Positions 1-33,000 of a DNA stretch of 64,000 nucleotides are shown in pieces; the first letter of the stretch is position 1, and every line of letters begins with the position of its first letter. Location of the stretch: positions 7,316,001 through 7,380,000 of the forward strand of contig CM069142.1 in assembly GCA_035221665.1 (NCBI GenBank), in the 5' to 3' direction. The stretch comes from Okamejei kenojei. Lineage: Eukaryota. The position numbers were made by a program.

Positions 1-3000
1 ATTATTTTAATAGTATCTTAGGAAACAAAGAGAGAAGAATGGACTTAATGTACCAATAACGTGGTAAGTGCATTTCTTAGTCCTTAATTTTTATAAATAC
101 TGTATTTCCCGAGGTGGGGGGAGAGCTCCATTCACAGTGTTTGGGGAATCTAGCATTGTGAAGGAGGGGATTGGGGTCAGTAACCCACTTGCCACGCTCC
201 GGTCTGAGTGCAGGTAGATGGGACTAGGTGAGAGTTAGTGTTCAGCACGGAGTAAAAGGGCGGAGATGGCCTGTTTCCGTGCTGTAATTGCTATATGGTT
301 TTATTGTGGCCGGGGAGTGAATTAGCTTGGGTGGCTGCCGCAGCGCTCCGCGCACGGACAGCCCTGGCCGCCACTTCCGAGGAAGGAAGCAGCTCGGGTG
401 ACTGCCGGTGGCCGCCGGGACCCTGCCACTTCAGCCACTTCAGCCCCTTCTGCTGGTCCCCACTCACCGCTGGCAGTGCTCTCCGTCTGAACATCTCTCA
501 CCTGCCGCTCGCCGGCCGGCTTCCCGCAAATCTTTAAATTCCGACAGCGCGTTCACGGGACCAGTTGAGGTTACTTGGCTGTGGGAATTTAAGGATTTGC
601 GGGACGTGTGAGGCTACAATCAGGACTGCTTTGAATCAGGTTTTGTGTTCGTGTTATAGACACAAGATAAGACACATCCCCCTGTTCCACTTTGCAAGCG
701 GTCACAGTCAGAGAGTCATCTTTAGTCAGAGGGTGGTGAATCTGCAGATTTCATTGCCCCAGACGGCACAAAGAGGCCAAGTCAATGGGTATTATTAAAG
801 TGGAGATTGACAGGTTCTTGATTAGTACGGGTGTCAGGGGCTATGGGGAGAAAGCAGGAGAATGGGGTTGAGAGGGAAGCATAGATCAGCCATGATTGAA
901 TGGCGGAGTAGACTCGATGGGCCGAATGGCCTAATTCTGCTCCGATGATTTATGAATTTATGAACTTATGTCATAGAACTGTACAGCATGGAATCAGGCC
1001 CTTTGGCCCATCTTGTCCAAGTCATCCATGTTGACACACTGGGCCAGTCCCACTTGCCTGCATTTGGCCCATATCCCTCTAAACCCTTTCTTATCCATAT
1101 CTCCATGGTGCATTTCATAGTAGATTTATATCATAACCATATAATATTGGGCAACATGGAGGCGCAGCGGTAGAGTTGCTGCCTTACAGTGCCTGCAATG
1201 CCAGTGACCCGCGTTAGATCCCAACTGCGGGTGCTGTCTTTACAGAGTTTGTATGTTCTCCCCGTGACCGCATGGGTTTCCTACGAGATCTCCCACACTA
1301 GGTGTGAGCGTGGTTGTGAGTGTGTGGGGGTGAGTATGAGACTCGGTGTGGGTGTGTGTGTGAGACTGGATATGAGTGTAGGTGTGAGTATGAGACTGGA
1401 TGTGAGTGTAGTGTGCATGTGCATGGAGTGTAAGTGTGAGTCTGGATGTGAGTGTGAGCGTGGGTGTGGGCGTGAGTGGCCGTGAGTGTGAGTATGTGTA
1501 TGTGTGTGCAGTGTGTGTGTGTGTGTGGGTGCATAGTTATACCTGTACATAGATACATAGACAATAGGTGCAGGAGGAGGCCATTCGGCCCTTCGGGCCA
1601 GCACCGCCATTCAATGTGATCATGGCTGATCATCCACAAAGTACCCCGTTCCTGCCTTCTCCCGACCTCCCTTGACCTCTATCTAACTCTCTTTTGAATG
1701 CCTCGACTGCCTTCTGAGGCAGAGAATTCCACACATCCACAACTCTCCATGTGAAAATGTTTTTCCTCATCTCAGTTCTAAATGGCCTATCCCTTATTCT
1801 TAAACTGTGGTCACTGGTTCTGGACTCCCCCAACATCGGGAACATGTTTCCTGCATCGAGTGTGTCCAATCCCTTAATAATTTTATATGTTACTCTAAGA
1901 TCCCCTCTCATCTTTCTAAATTCCAGTGAATACACACCCAGTCACTCCATTCTTTCATCATATGACAGTCCCGCCATCCTGAGAATTAACCTCATGAACC
2001 TACGCTGCAATCCCGCAATAGGAAGAATGTCCTTCCTCAAATTAGGAGACCAAAACTGCACACAATACTCCAGGTGTGGTCTCACCAGGGCTCTGTACAA
2101 CTGCAGAAGGACCTCTTTGCTCCTTAACTCAGCTCCTTTCGTTATAAAGGCCAACATGCCATTCGCTTTCTTCACTGCCTGCTGTACCTGCATGGAGTGT
2201 GGGTGTGGGTGTGAGTATAGGTGTGAGTGGAGTGTGAGTCTGATTGTGGGTGTGGGTGTGAGTCTGGCTGTGAGAGTGTGAGTGTGTGAGGGGAGTGTGA
2301 GCGTGTGTGAGAGTGTGAGTGTGTGTGAGAGTGAGTGAGGATGTGAGTCTGACTGTGAGTGTGAGGGGAGTGTGAGTGTGAGGGAGCGTGAGTGTGTGTG
2401 AGTGTGAGTGACTGTGTGTGTACAATGTTACAGAGGGCAGCACTGGGGTGGGAGATTGCAACCTTCACGTGGTCCGCCCTGTTTCAACCTGCAATCAACC
2501 TGGTGTGCACAATCAAATAAGATCAAGTTGTCCGACAACTTTAGGCTGTGCGCGCCACACACAAGAAGAAGTAGGGCAGCACTGCCTCTTTTTCCTTCTT
2601 GTGGGGATGAGGCATTAAGTTCTTCTTCCTCGTGTCCGGCCATCTTCTATATCACGTATTTCCAGTCGGTCAATGACGTTGGCGTGGGCGGTTGCACAAT
2701 TGGCTGCTTCAGTCATTCACTGTGGAACAGTTCCTGTCGTCAGCATTGCCCGGGAAGCCCCACGTGGAGGCTTCTGCTTGCATCCCGGTAACGTTCTGAT
2801 GCGCGGCTTCCTGTGAGAGTGTGGGGCTGATCTCATCGTTAGATCTCATCTTTTTCTCGCAGCGTTTTTTTTTCTGGATAGACTCATGAGTAAGAAGCAA
2901 ATAATTGGAATGACATGCGCGTTTATGAGCGCTGCCATATTCACGTGCCGACAGCTGTGAACAGGAAGAGGAACAGGAAGAAATGTTCCCACGGACAGCC

Positions 3001-30000: not shown

Positions 30001-33000
30001 CTTCTGCCCAACATGCCCGTGCTGACCAACATGCCCCATCTACACCAATCCCACCTGCCCGAGTTTGGCCCATATCCCTCTTAACCTTTCCTATCCATGT
30101 ACCTGGACAAATGTCTGTCAAATGCTGTTATTCAGCCAAGTCGAGTGTTAACAAATCTCATTGTAAGTACTCAACAAAGGATCAAAAAACCAAATGCAGT
30201 GCAAAGTAAAACTAAATAAAAAATATGGCAGGGTCTGGAACAGGGGAGGTTCAGTTGGTACCTGTGTAGGAAAGAACTACAGATATAGGTTCATACACTG
30301 AAGATAGACACACAATGCTGGAGTAACTCAGTGGGACAGGCATCATCTCTCGAGAGAAGGAGTGGCTGACCTTTCGGATCGAGACCCTTCTTCAGACTGA
30401 AGTTTTTAATTGATTTGTGCCCCTTCCTGTCTACAAATCAAGCACTGCTCTGAACAAGGTCTGAGGAAGGGCCTTGACCCAAACTGTCACCCGTTCCTTC
30501 TCTCCAGAGATGCTGCCTGTTCCTGAGGAGGGAGATGTAGAGGCCAGACCAGCACAGACTGAGCTGACTGACCACAGCCTGGCTTGCTGCTCTTCACCAA
30601 TGCTGTTTGTGTGGAAGGGCAGGCAGGCTGCGCTGATGCAGGGAGATGAATAAGGTGCAAAATAAGGTGGATGAATTGTTTGCGCAGTGGGTAGTTAAGG
30701 GATATGATATAGTTGGAATTACGGAGACATGGCTCCAGGGTGACCATGGCTGGGAGCTAAACATGCAGGGGTCTTCAATATTCAGGAAGGATAGACAGAA
30801 ATCAAGAGGAGGTGGGGTGGCATTGCTGGTTAAAGAGGAGATTAATGCAATAGCAAGGAGAGACAATAGCTTGGATGCTGTAGAATCAGTATGGGTAGAA
30901 CAGCGAAATAGCCATGGGTAGAAAACGGCTGGGAGGGTTGTGTGTGGGCTGGGAGGGGGTGTGTGGGAGGAGAGGGGTGTGTGGATGGGAGGAGTGTGTG
31001 TGGCGGTTTAAGATGTGTGTGGGGGCGAGGGGCGGGGTTGTAGGGGCAGTGGGGTTGTGGGGGGGAGGGGTGTGGGGCGGGGGGGCTTGTTGGGGGGAAT
31101 GATGTGGGGGCAGGGGTTTGAGGGGGATGGGGTGTGGGGGACAGCGGGGGTGGGGGGAGGGGTTGTGGGCGGGGGGGGGGGGGGGGGGGGGGGGGTGGGG
31201 GAGCGGGGGGTGTAGACGGGGGGGGGTTTGCGCAGTTAGAAGAATCGCGCAAACCGGAAGAGCAAAAGATCTAAGTTTTAGTTATGTGNNNNNNNNNNNN
31301 NNNNNNNNNNNNNNNNNNNNNNNNNNNNNNNNNNNNNNNNNNNNNNNNNNNNNNNNNNNNNNNNNNNNNNNNNNNNNNNNNNNNNNNNNNNNNNNNNNNN
31401 NNNNNNNNNNNNNNNNNNNNNNNNNNNNNNNNNNNNNNNNNNNNNNNNNNNNNNNNNNNNNNNNNNNNNNNNNNNNNNNNNNNNNNNNNNNNNNNNNNNN
31501 NNNNNNNNNNNNNNNNNNNTGGGACCCGTTGGGTGCCATGTTCACACGGGAGGGCTGGTCCCCCAACGCAATATTCCATCAATTCCAATATTGGTGGCCA
31601 GTGGAGGGGGGGCTTTCTGGAGCACTGGTATTGGTGTTATGGGCTGAAGGGACTGGTCTCAAGAAGGCTAGTATGGACATTGTGGGCCAAATGGATTCTT
31701 GTGGTGGCAGCTAGTCCCTCAAGCCTGATGTGCTGGCAGCTCTCTCACGGCCGGTGGGCTGGCAGTTGACTCATGGCTATTCCTTGAAATTCCATTTCAA
31801 GCAGGGTGCAAGGCCACCAAATTCAAATCCATTTTCCTACCATTTCAAGCAGGGTGCAAGGCCACCAAATTCAAGTGCAGTTTCTTACCACTTCAAGCAG
31901 GGTGCAAGGCCACCAAATTCAAGTGCAGTTTCATACCATTTCAAGCAGGGTGCATGGCCATCGAATTCAAGTGCAGTTTCCTACCACTTCAAGCAGGATG
32001 CAAGGCCACCAAATTCAAGTGCAGTTTCATACCATTTCAAGCACGGTGCAAGGCCACCAAATTCAAGTGCAGTTTCATACCATTTCATGCAGCGTGCAGG
32101 CCACCGAATTCAAATGCAGTTTCATACCATTTCAAGCAGGGTGAAACCACCAAAAAAACACACACAAAACACCACACTCACAATTCAGTAGACATTCAGT
32201 ATGTTCAGTTGATTCATAGCTCAGACAGAGTTGTGACCTCTCCCTCCCCCATCATGCAGAGACTGAGCCACACCCACACTTCCGGATTTTATAATCCCTC
32301 CACCCTCCTACCCGAAAGGGTGTGGCCTTCATGGCGTGATTAACAGTAGAGAGATTCTCAACATTTTTTAAACACTAATAACACTTTTATTTTTAATTGA
32401 TGGGAAGAATCCTCTGCACCAGATGAGCGGAGGGGGACTGAGTAAGATTGCCAAATATCACAGCCGTTAGTGGTAGCGTTTCATCTGAAATCAATATACA
32501 GTGCAAACCGGAAGTTTAGACCACCAACCATTTGCAGTGCTTTTACTTCAGCCCAAAAACCCCAAACCAACCATTTGCAGTGCCTTCACTTCAACCCAAA
32601 ACCCCCAAACCAACCATTTGTAGTGCTTTTACTTCTACTGTTACTTGGTATACAAACTTAAAGCACACGGTATTGGTGGTTCAGTATTGATGTGGATAGA
32701 GAGCTGGCTGGCAGACAGGAAGCAAAGAGTAGGAGTGAACGGGTCCTTTTCAGGATGGCAGACAATGAATAGTGGGGTGCCGCAAGGCTCAGTGCTGGGA
32801 CCCCAGCTATTTACAATATACATTAATGATTTGGACGAGGGAATTAAATGCAACATCTCGAAGTTTGCGGATGACACAAAGCTGGGGGGCAGTGTTAGCT
32901 GTGAGGAGGATGCTAGGATGGCTTGGATAGACTGGGTGAGTGGGAAAATGCATGGCAGATGCAGTATAATGTGGATAAATGTGAGGTTATCCACTTTGGT

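What the first reader, a model, noticed from the sequence alone, without database searches (positions are those of the whole stretch)
1..30410. Two leader+IgV cassettes upstream of a single C-V-TM module: possible variable-cassette B7 locus
Seen: the upstream region, leader and V1 unit is present twice about 25 kb apart, while the C, V2 and TM exons occur once. The copies differ by real substitutions, three of them amino-acid changing in V1 (G/A, L/S, V/M), and copy 1 has a 1-bp deletion in a GG run, the kind of error common elsewhere in this assembly. Inference: if the deletion is an error, copy 1 has intact phase-1 splice sites and could splice to the shared exon at 36433, giving alternative N-terminal ligand domains on a common body. 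Otherwise it is a pseudogene fragment or a falsely duplicated haplotype.
[Added by the scan's program, not by the reader: the finding's places include an assembly gap (unread letters, written N; its length is only estimated) at 13157 to 13656. Whether the letters on both sides are continuous or in frame is not known: test that first.]
Basis: partly seen in the sequence, partly recalled or inferred. Interest (0 to 1): 0.65.

Follow-up and report, generated by a model that had tools for sequence, protein, structure and literature searches.

The report
Partial duplicate of skate B7 gene
A skate immune-ligand gene of the B7 family has a second, near-identical copy of its promoter, signal-peptide exon and first domain exon about 20-25 kb upstream; it is most likely an ordinary recent partial duplication, possibly a dead fragment, in an error-prone assembly, not a system of swappable domains.

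Summary
Window 1-5496 and 24866-30410 are 97.1% identical. Each holds a leader exon and a V-set exon, while the C, V2 and TM exons occur once. Copy 1 lacks one G at 4987 and is frameshifted as assembled.

The gene is the counterpart of the protein annotated HHLA2 in Amblyraja radiata, at 89% identity in V1. The window is cartilaginous-fish DNA, not human.

The 500-N gap lies in the spacer and no exon crosses it, but it puts the two copies on different contigs. Its flanks are two head-to-tail renditions of one ~5.3 kb unit. Their differences look like sequencing noise: 429 gap events against 207 mismatches, 28% transitions. The copy 1/copy 2 differences look biological: 52% transitions and a CpG excess.

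Copy 1 joins a DIRS-like element inside continuous sequence, and its downstream flank is not colinear with that of copy 2. I favour a real partial duplication (0.55) over a misplaced haplotype (0.22).

Nothing supports alternative cassette use. There are only three residue differences, a same-phase acceptor on the downstream V1, and a single V1 in three relatives. Read and RNA data are needed.

The parts
1..5496 (+). Copy 1 of the duplicated 5' module: at least 2.98 kb upstream sequence, leader, intron 1, V1 and 479 bp of intron 2. It is cut by the window edge at its 5' end.
   Evidence: 97.1% to 24866-30410; 74 substitutions, 32 indels
2983..3040 (+). Leader (signal peptide) exon, copy 1: ATG, 58 nt, GT donor, phase 1.
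4692..5017 (+). V1 (V-set) exon, copy 1: 326 nt, with one G missing at 4987, so frameshifted as assembled. Splice sites are identical to copy 2.
5494..7862 (-). DIRS-like retroelement remnant that starts where copy 1 homology ends. It has 79-nt inverted arms (5494-5572 / 5725-5803) and a tyrosine-recombinase-like ORF at 6012-6437.
   Evidence: (Phage_integrase E=6.8e-5, below the curated cut-off)
7863..13152 (+). Unit X: the last 5.3 kb of the left contig, ending 4 nt before the gap.
13157..13656 (.). Assembly gap (500 N) in the spacer between the two copies. Not filled or inferred.
13673..19039 (+). Unit X': the first 5.4 kb of the right contig, in register with X. Both begin with a poly-C tract and the same following bases.
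21598..23241 (-). Tc1/mariner element in the spacer with an open 317-residue transposase frame (21825-22775).
24866..30410 (+). Copy 2 of the 5' module, continuous with the rest of the gene.
27855..27912 (+). Leader exon, copy 2.
29605..29931 (+). V1 exon, copy 2: 327 nt, open frame, phase 1 at both ends.
   Evidence: (V-set 4.8e-10)
36433..36717 (+). C exon (C2-set_3): 285 nt, phase 1 at both ends, single copy.
   Evidence: (7e-13)
39060..39365 (+). V2 exon (V-set): 306 nt, phase 1 at both ends, single copy.
   Evidence: (4.4e-10)
41965..42089 (+). Transmembrane and short tail exon with the stop codon, single copy.

Best explanation
This is a real and recent segmental duplication, probably tandem, with a unit of roughly 19-25 kb. 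It copied the 5' module of a skate B7 group-III gene: promoter region, leader exon, V1 exon and 479 bp of intron 2. The gene has the V-C-V-TM layout and its thorny-skate counterpart is annotated HHLA2.

The downstream copy belongs to the intact five-exon gene. Its coding lengths of 58+327+285+306+125 nt sum to 366 codons plus a stop.

The upstream copy is an orphan partial gene with no C, V2 or TM exons of its own. It ends at a junction with a DIRS-like retroelement. As assembled it is frameshifted. It is most likely a non-functional fragment, or at most an extra promoter and first exon feeding the downstream gene.

Shown: the duplication, the exon structure, the junctions and the spectra of differences. 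Inferred: that the two contigs lie on one molecule, the tandem model, and the lack of function.
For: 1. The copy 1 to DIRS junction at 5494-5497 lies inside uninterrupted sequence, with 3-7 nt shared at the join.
2. Downstream of copy 1 (5497-13156) nothing is colinear with downstream of copy 2 (30411-46000), as alleles should be: 0 and 1 BLAST hits, the one hit being a repeat.
3. The contig holding copy 1 ends in unit X and the contig holding copy 2 begins with X', in register. So X lies after copy 1 and before copy 2. A single-copy locus cannot give that order without a chimeric contig.
4. The copy 1/copy 2 differences look biological. Transitions are 33 of 64 mismatches, like old repeats in the window (72 of 146, p=0.88) and unlike the noisy X/X' pair (58 of 207, p=0.0008). 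Isolated transitions fall at CpG in 11 of 25 cases, against 3 of 23 transversions (p=0.027).
5. The exons are no better conserved than the flanks: 6 substitutions in 384 nt against 68 in 5112 nt (p=0.64). One-base indels occur at 0.4% per nt outside the exon, so 1.3 are expected in 326 nt. Two of the three residue changes, and the frameshift, are on the copy 1 side relative to three relatives.
Against: - An assembly gap lies between the copies. Ko et al. list this as a hallmark of false duplication (PMC9516828, passages read).
- The assembly is visibly error-prone here (X/X', Y/Y'), so a chimeric contig cannot be excluded.
- Copy 1 lacks the bases in 31 of 41 gap events (p=0.0015). This suggests its contig has poorer consensus, as a low-depth haplotig would.
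- Divergence is patchy: 14 substitutions in 1001-3500 against 60 in the rest (p=2.6e-6). This fits alleles as well as gene conversion.
- pN/pS of 0.32 leans slightly towards constraint rather than decay, though on only 6 changes.
- No reads, no transcripts and no second genome could be consulted.
Confidence: 0.55

Rival explanations
1. False (heterotype) duplication. Copy 1 is the other haplotype of the single 5' module, assembled as a separate contig and placed upstream of its allele by the scaffolder.
For: - There is a gap between the copies on one scaffold. This is one of four hallmarks in PMC9516828.
- The differences carry a real mutational signature, which alleles would also show.
- Copy 1 is biased towards missing bases (31 of 41 gap events), as expected for a thinly covered contig.
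- Other redundant stretches in the same window (X/X', Y/Y') show that this assembly fails to merge overlapping sequence.
Against: - The flanks are not colinear. Copy 1 runs into a DIRS-like element and X within continuous sequence, while copy 2 runs into a LINE remnant and then the C exon.
- X lies after copy 1 and X' before copy 2. A haplotig would therefore need either a haplotype-specific insertion of at least 7.6 kb exactly at 5496 or a chimeric contig.
- Substitutions of 1.3% plus indels seem high for heterozygosity in a cartilaginous fish (my recollection, not tested).
Confidence: 0.22
2. Functional variable cassettes. The deletion is an assembly error. Each leader+V1 pair has its own promoter and is joined in a mutually exclusive way to the shared C exon at 36433, giving two ligand-binding domains on one body.
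For: - Both cassettes keep identical leader coding sequence, identical splice sites and at least 2.98 kb of upstream sequence.
- V1 is a symmetric phase-1 exon, so 5017 to 36433 would be in frame if the G is restored.
- The deletion has roughly an even chance of being an error, judged from the 15 against 7 asymmetry of one-base indels.
- Two of the three residue changes fall in or just after the F-G region when aligned to the CD276 IgV domain.
Against: - The frame is broken as assembled.
- Only 3 of 108 residues differ, with no excess of replacement changes (pN/pS 0.32).
- The downstream V1 has a normal acceptor in the same phase and lies between 5017 and 36433. In known variable-first-exon clusters the variable exons have no acceptor (recalled).
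- The three relatives have one V1 each.
- Only two cassettes are visible.
Confidence: 0.07
3. Copy 1 is real, intact and transcribed, but is not used as an alternative. One possibility is that its V1 splices to the downstream V1 acceptor, giving an in-frame V-V-C-V-TM protein. The other is that only its promoter and leader are used, splicing 3040 to 29605 and encoding the same protein as the downstream promoter.
For: - V1 is 327 nt with phase 1 at both ends, so including both V1 exons keeps the frame.
- The two leaders encode the same 19 residues plus one base.
- A near-identical in-gene Ig duplication exists in a relative of this family: the 4-Ig CD276 chain matched V1 and C twice each with almost equal scores.
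Against: - The frameshift as assembled.
- About 24.6 kb of repeat-rich sequence lies between 5017 and 29605.
- No transcript data exist.
- None of the three relatives has a V-V form.
Confidence: 0.08

Closest known systems
HHLA2 (B7-H7), and B7 group III with B7-H3/CD276 and B7x/VTCN1
   Same: - The layout is signal peptide, IgV1, IgC, IgV2, one TM and a short tail. This is the IgV1-IgC-IgV2 layout described for HHLA2 (PMC10173190, passages).
- The closest named protein is annotated HHLA2 in Amblyraja radiata (89% identity in V1, 83% in V2).
- V1 is the domain most like other B7 members, as that review states for HHLA2.
   Different: - By sequence, V1 and C are closest to CD276 among solved structures (5.7e-29 and 1.1e-19). 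No HHLA2 chain is among the best 60 shown for V1 or for the whole skate protein.
- The basking-shark counterpart is named VTCN1-like.
- Orthology to human HHLA2 was not established here.
4-Ig B7-H3 (CD276) produced by duplication of Ig exons
   Same: It is a young, near-identical duplication of Ig-domain exons in a group-III B7 gene. The 4-Ig chain 9ly6_A matched V1 at two positions with 50.5 and 50.9 bits.
   Different: There, a V-C exon pair is repeated inside the gene and read through in frame. Here, promoter, leader and V are repeated 19-25 kb upstream, with repeats in between and a frameshift as assembled.
Variable first-exon clusters (clustered protocadherins, UGT1A); recalled, not tested by any search
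   Same: Repeated 5' units, each with its own upstream region, lie ahead of a single set of shared exons.
   Different: - In those clusters each variable unit is a single first exon with only a donor, and there are many diversified units.
- Here each unit is two exons and the second V1 has an acceptor.
- There are only two units, they are 97% identical, and one is broken.
False heterotype duplications in vertebrate assemblies (Ko et al. 2022, PMC9516828)
   Same: Two near-identical copies sit on one scaffold with a gap between them, in an assembly that shows other unmerged redundancy.
   Different: The flanks are not colinear, and the order copy 1 - X | X' - copy 2 does not fit a single-copy locus. 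Depth, linked reads and k-mers could not be examined.

Membership tests
B7 family (group III: B7-H3, B7x, HHLA2) | Ectodomain of IgV followed by IgC, one domain per exon with phase-1 boundaries | tested here: met
   Pfam gives V-set 4.8e-10 and C2-set_3 7e-13. Exon bounds and phases were read.
B7 family (group III: B7-H3, B7x, HHLA2) | Closest sequence relatives are B7 members | tested here: met
   For V1: CD276 5.7e-29 and VTCN1 9.5e-19. For C: CD276 1.1e-19. For the skate protein P0001: CD276 6.4e-61.
B7 family (group III: B7-H3, B7x, HHLA2) | Type I membrane protein with signal peptide, single TM and short tail | tested here: met
   The leader and TM exons were found by tblastn with P0001-P0003 and read directly. 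No signal-peptide or TM predictor was run.
HHLA2 (B7-H7) orthologue | IgV1-IgC-IgV2 architecture | tested here: met
   Three Ig exons in that order. The layout is described in PMC10173190.
HHLA2 (B7-H7) orthologue | Closer in sequence to HHLA2 than to other B7 members | tested here: inconclusive
   No HHLA2 chain is in the best 60 PDB matches shown for V1 or for P0001, and CD276 is best. V2 gave no B7-specific match. Source names of relatives disagree: HHLA2 against VTCN1-like. No tree was built.
HHLA2 (B7-H7) orthologue | Conserved gene neighbourhood, and binding to a CD28H/TMIGD2-like receptor | not testable with these tools
   No eukaryotic genome collection was available. CD28H homologues in chondrichthyans are reported in PMC11599192 (passages).
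Variable first-exon (alternative cassette) locus | Two or more 5' units, each with its own upstream region, ahead of shared exons | tested here: met
   There are two units, each with at least 2.98 kb upstream, and C/V2/TM occur once. Promoter activity was not tested.
Variable first-exon (alternative cassette) locus | Every unit has an open frame | tested here: not met
   Copy 1 V1 is 326 nt and frameshifted at 4987 as assembled. This may be an assembly error.
Variable first-exon (alternative cassette) locus | Units diversified in the encoded domain | tested here: not met
   3 of 108 residues differ; pN/pS is 0.32.
Variable first-exon (alternative cassette) locus | Downstream units cannot capture the upstream donor (no acceptor on variable exons) | tested here: not met
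   The V1 exon of copy 2 has an AG acceptor in the same phase. The criterion itself is recalled.
Variable first-exon (alternative cassette) locus | Transcripts joining each unit to the shared exons | not testable with these tools
   There are no RNA data. Relatives P0001-P0003 show one V1 each.
False heterotype duplication (PMC9516828) | Gap between the duplicated pair on the same scaffold | tested here: met
   The N run 13157-13656 lies between the copies.
False heterotype duplication (PMC9516828) | Half read depth, discordant links, haplotype-specific k-mers | not testable with these tools
   No reads were available.
False heterotype duplication (PMC9516828) | Flanks of the two copies colinear, as alleles are (my own criterion) | tested here: not met
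   There are no colinear hits between 5497-13156 and 30411-46000.

The most novel reading that the evidence does not exclude
The missing G is an assembly error and the skate carries two promoter-leader-V1 cassettes, possibly more upstream of the window. They would be used alternatively with one C-V2-TM body. A B7-type ligand would then present alternative receptor-binding domains from one gene, a protocadherin-like arrangement not described for B7 genes as far as I found. My three literature searches were not aimed at that exact claim.
Probability: 0.07. Interest if true: 0.6.

Novelty: new member of a known kind. Interest (0 to 1): 0.2.

Why it matters
It matters mainly as a caution. A gene count or an "expansion" of B7 ligands taken from this assembly would be inflated by an orphan 5' fragment or by an assembly artefact. 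The same window also shows further redundant stretches that look like unmerged overlaps.

If the upstream cassette proved intact and expressed, it would be a small but real example of a co-signalling ligand gaining a second receptor-binding domain or a second promoter by partial duplication. The cases for comparison are the 4-Ig form of B7-H3 and the CD28H homologues reported in cartilaginous fish.

Tried and rejected
- **Hidden exons for copy 1.** tblastn with three relatives found no C, V2 or TM copy in 5.5-24.8 kb. Only the gap could hide any.
- **Homology resuming after the DIRS element.** BLAST of 5490-13156 against 30411-36432 gave 0 hits, and against 36718-46000 gave 1 repeat hit.
- **Same-species proteins or fragments carrying copy 1 variants.**
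  - The longer-length search gave 5 hits among 152 candidates, none from the window's own species.
  - The near-length search gave 0 hits among 3 candidates.
- **V2 relatives.** The word-based search gave only P0001 and P0002. The representative search gave 101 unnamed proteins at E<=0.001; I did not fetch or use any new one, and P0003, already fetched, was among them.
- **AlphaFold2 model of V1 from a 4-row alignment.** Mean pLDDT was 52.6, too poor to place the three changed residues. No fold search was run. I used the CD276 alignment instead.
- **X/X' as an old tandem duplication.** A global MAFFT alignment suggested 65-88% identity per 500-column block, apart from a 7-column remainder. I rejected this reading in favour of noise on one sequence after seeing the indel-dominated, transition-poor spectrum.
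- **Pfam on ORFs.** 7 of the 46 spacer and flank ORFs scanned matched any family. This gave repeat annotations only, and nothing for X or X'.
- **Flajnik et al. 2012 on B7H7 (PMC3709836).** The paper is not held. I know it only from the reference list of PMC11599192.
- **Joined model.** Only their lengths were summed.

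
Full report
**What the window is.** The 64 kb window has four N runs: 13157-13656, 31289-31519, 40451-40610 and 54918-55157. It is rich in fish-type repeats: a Tc1/mariner element, DIRS-like elements, and LINE and LTR-element remnants. 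The gene in question is closest to a protein of the thorny skate. I therefore take the window for cartilaginous-fish DNA, not human.

**The observation.**
- Self-BLAST shows 1-5496 and 24866-30410 to be 97.1% identical over 5569 columns. Copy 1 begins at the window edge, so the repeat may extend further upstream.
- Three related proteins were fetched after an exon-wise search: P0001, annotated HHLA2 in Amblyraja radiata; P0002, unnamed; and P0003, annotated VTCN1-like in Cetorhinus maximus.
- tblastn with these, plus direct reading, places the exons:
  - leader at 2983-3040 and 27855-27912
  - V1 at 4692-5017 and 29605-29931
  - C at 36433-36717
  - V2 at 39060-39365
  - TM/tail at 41965-42089
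- All internal exons have AG/GT sites and phase 1. The coding lengths sum to 1101 nt, or 366 codons plus a stop. The relatives are 369, 368 and 367 residues long.
- No second C, V2 or TM was found.
- In V1 the copies differ by three synonymous and three replacement changes. Copy 1 also lacks one G of a GG pair at 4987, which shifts the frame.

**The gap, tested first.**
- The 500-N run lies in the spacer. No exon or frame of the gene crosses it, so the question of frame continuity does not arise.
- It does put copy 1 (contig 1-13156) and copy 2 (contig 13657-31288) on different contigs. Their spacing and linkage therefore rest on scaffolding.
- The flanks are informative. The last 5.3 kb before the gap (X, 7863-13152) and the first 5.4 kb after it (X', 13673-19039) match head to tail and in register. 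Each begins with a poly-C tract followed by the same bases.
- Their differences are 429 gap events (360 of one base) against 207 mismatches, of which only 58 are transitions.
- Old interspersed repeats in the same window show 62 gap events against 146 mismatches, with 72 transitions.
- The X/X' spectrum therefore reads as sequencing noise on two renditions of one sequence, or on a very young tandem repeat. It does not read as old divergence.
- If X and X' are one sequence, the two contigs overlap and the copies are about 19 kb apart, not 25 kb.

**Real duplication or misplaced haplotype.**
- The copy 1/copy 2 differences are of another kind than X/X':
  - Transitions are 33 of 64 mismatches. 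This is indistinguishable from old repeats (p=0.88) and different from X/X' (p=0.0008).
  - CpG sites account for 11 of 25 isolated transitions but only 3 of 23 isolated transversions (p=0.027).
  - These are biological differences, so the copies are either paralogues or alleles.
- Three points favour paralogues:
  - Copy 1 homology stops at 5496, exactly where a DIRS-like element begins, inside uninterrupted sequence.
  - Nothing downstream of copy 1 is colinear with the intron downstream of copy 2.
  - X follows copy 1 while X' precedes copy 2. A single-copy locus cannot give this order unless a contig is chimeric.
- Three points favour alleles:
  - A gap lies between the copies, one of the hallmarks listed by Ko et al. 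(PMC9516828, passages).
  - The assembly is plainly poor in this region.
  - Copy 1 lacks the bases in 31 of 41 gap events (p=0.0015), as a thinly covered contig would.
- I put a real duplication at about 0.7 overall. Of that, 0.55 is for an inert or nearly inert fragment. I put a false duplication at 0.22.

**Is the frameshift real?**
- One-base indels between the copies occur at 0.4% per nt outside the exon, so 1.3 are expected in a 326-nt exon.
- In the BLAST alignment, 22 of 24 one-base gaps sit next to the same base. In the MAFFT alignment, 15 of 22 one-base indels are missing in copy 1.
- The asymmetry suggests that roughly half of the copy 1 deletions are consensus errors. The missing G therefore has about an even chance of being an artefact.
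- The sequence alone cannot decide this.

**Does it work as a variable cassette?** Nothing found here says so.
- Two units differ at 3 of 108 residues.
- pN/pS is 0.32 on six changes, and the exons are no more and no less diverged than the flanks (p=0.64).
- Compared with three relatives, Ala51 and Met103 of copy 1 are derived. Ser95 is shared with P0002 and P0003, and Leu95 with P0001, at a CpG codon.
- Aligned to the CD276 IgV domain, residue 51 falls in a short insertion after the C' region, residue 95 just after the F strand, and residue 103 in the G strand. An AlphaFold2 model was too poor to refine this (pLDDT 52.6).
- Mechanically, the V1 exon of copy 2 has a normal acceptor in the same phase and lies between the copy 1 donor and the C exon. 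The simplest product of a transcript from the upstream promoter would be V-V-C-V (in frame only if the G is restored), or a skip to the downstream V1. A mutually exclusive choice is less likely.
- All three relatives have a single V1.

**What the gene is.**
- Pfam gives V-set, C2-set_3 and V-set for the three Ig exons.
- V1 and C are closest to CD276 and then VTCN1 among solved structures. V2 has no B7-specific match.
- The V-C-V layout is the one described for HHLA2. HHLA2 groups with B7x and B7-H3, and its IgV1 binds TMIGD2/CD28H (PMC10173190, passages).
- CD28H homologues are reported in chondrichthyans (PMC11599192, passages).
- I file the gene as a B7 group-III member with HHLA2 architecture. 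Orthology to human HHLA2 was not established here.

**What stayed unchecked.**
- Reads, transcripts, the scaffold upstream of the window and any other cartilaginous-fish genome.
- Flajnik et al. 2012, which is not held.
- Supplementary files were not consulted.

**Verdict.** This is a correct observation of an ordinary thing. It is a recent partial duplicate of the 5' end of a B7 gene, of uncertain integrity, in an error-prone assembly. A false duplication is the main rival, and the variable-cassette idea remains an unexcluded long shot.

Noticed in passing
window 7863-13152 and 13673-19039: The two flanks of the 500-N gap are head-to-tail renditions of one ~5.3 kb unit. Their differences are dominated by one-base indels (429 gap events against 207 mismatches, 28% transitions). 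This looks like an unmerged contig overlap or a young tandem in poorly polished sequence. The true gap may be negative.
   Followed up: yes
window 53621-57660 and 57663-61517: A second head-to-tail pair of ~4 kb units at about 80% identity shows the same noise-like spectrum: 161 mismatches against 183 gap events, with 27% transitions, in the largest piece. The units are joined without any N, and the first holds the gap 54918-55157. As with X/X', it lies just after a DIRS-like element (51089 to about 53600).
   Followed up: partly
window 45835-50450: A GC-rich (61-63%) LTR-retroelement-like stretch has weak aspartyl-protease and reverse-transcriptase matches. Its long ORFs hop between frames every few hundred bases. 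The flanking repeat pair 45835-46045 / 50211-50450 differs by 7 mismatches but 22 gap events, again suggesting indel errors.
   Followed up: partly
window 21598-23241 (-): A Tc1/mariner element has an open 317-residue transposase frame (HTH_Tnp_Tc3_2 5.8e-19, DDE_3 2.3e-12) and terminal inverted repeats 92% alike. It may be a young or active copy.
   Followed up: partly
window 5494-5803 and 51093-51389: The DIRS-like elements start with a hairpin-like pair of 79-nt inverted arms (98.7% complementary in the first). Short pieces of this terminus recur inside X (10389-10436) and Y (56138-56180).
   Followed up: partly
window 1001-3500 against the rest of 1-5496: Divergence between the two copies is patchy. 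There are 14 substitutions in the central 2500 nt, which holds the promoter region and leader, against 60 in the other 2996 nt (p=2.6e-6). This could be gene conversion, constraint or uneven heterozygosity.
   Followed up: partly
window 4977 / 29890 (V1 codon 95): The Ser/Leu difference between the copies is mirrored among relatives: Ser in P0002 and the basking-shark protein, Leu in the thorny-skate protein. The codon holds a CpG, so it may be a recurrent mutation or an old polymorphism.
   Followed up: no
window 31792-32154, 32523-32635, 33404-33602: Tandem repeats of 48, 43 and 40 nt (7.6, 2.6 and 4.8 copies) lie in intron 2 among LINE remnants (endonuclease 30637-30918, reverse transcriptase 32624-33016).
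   Followed up: no
proteins P0001 and P0003 (relatives): Source names of evident counterparts disagree: HHLA2 in the thorny skate and VTCN1-like in the basking shark. The best solved-structure match is CD276. The naming of this gene in cartilaginous fish needs a proper tree.
   Followed up: partly
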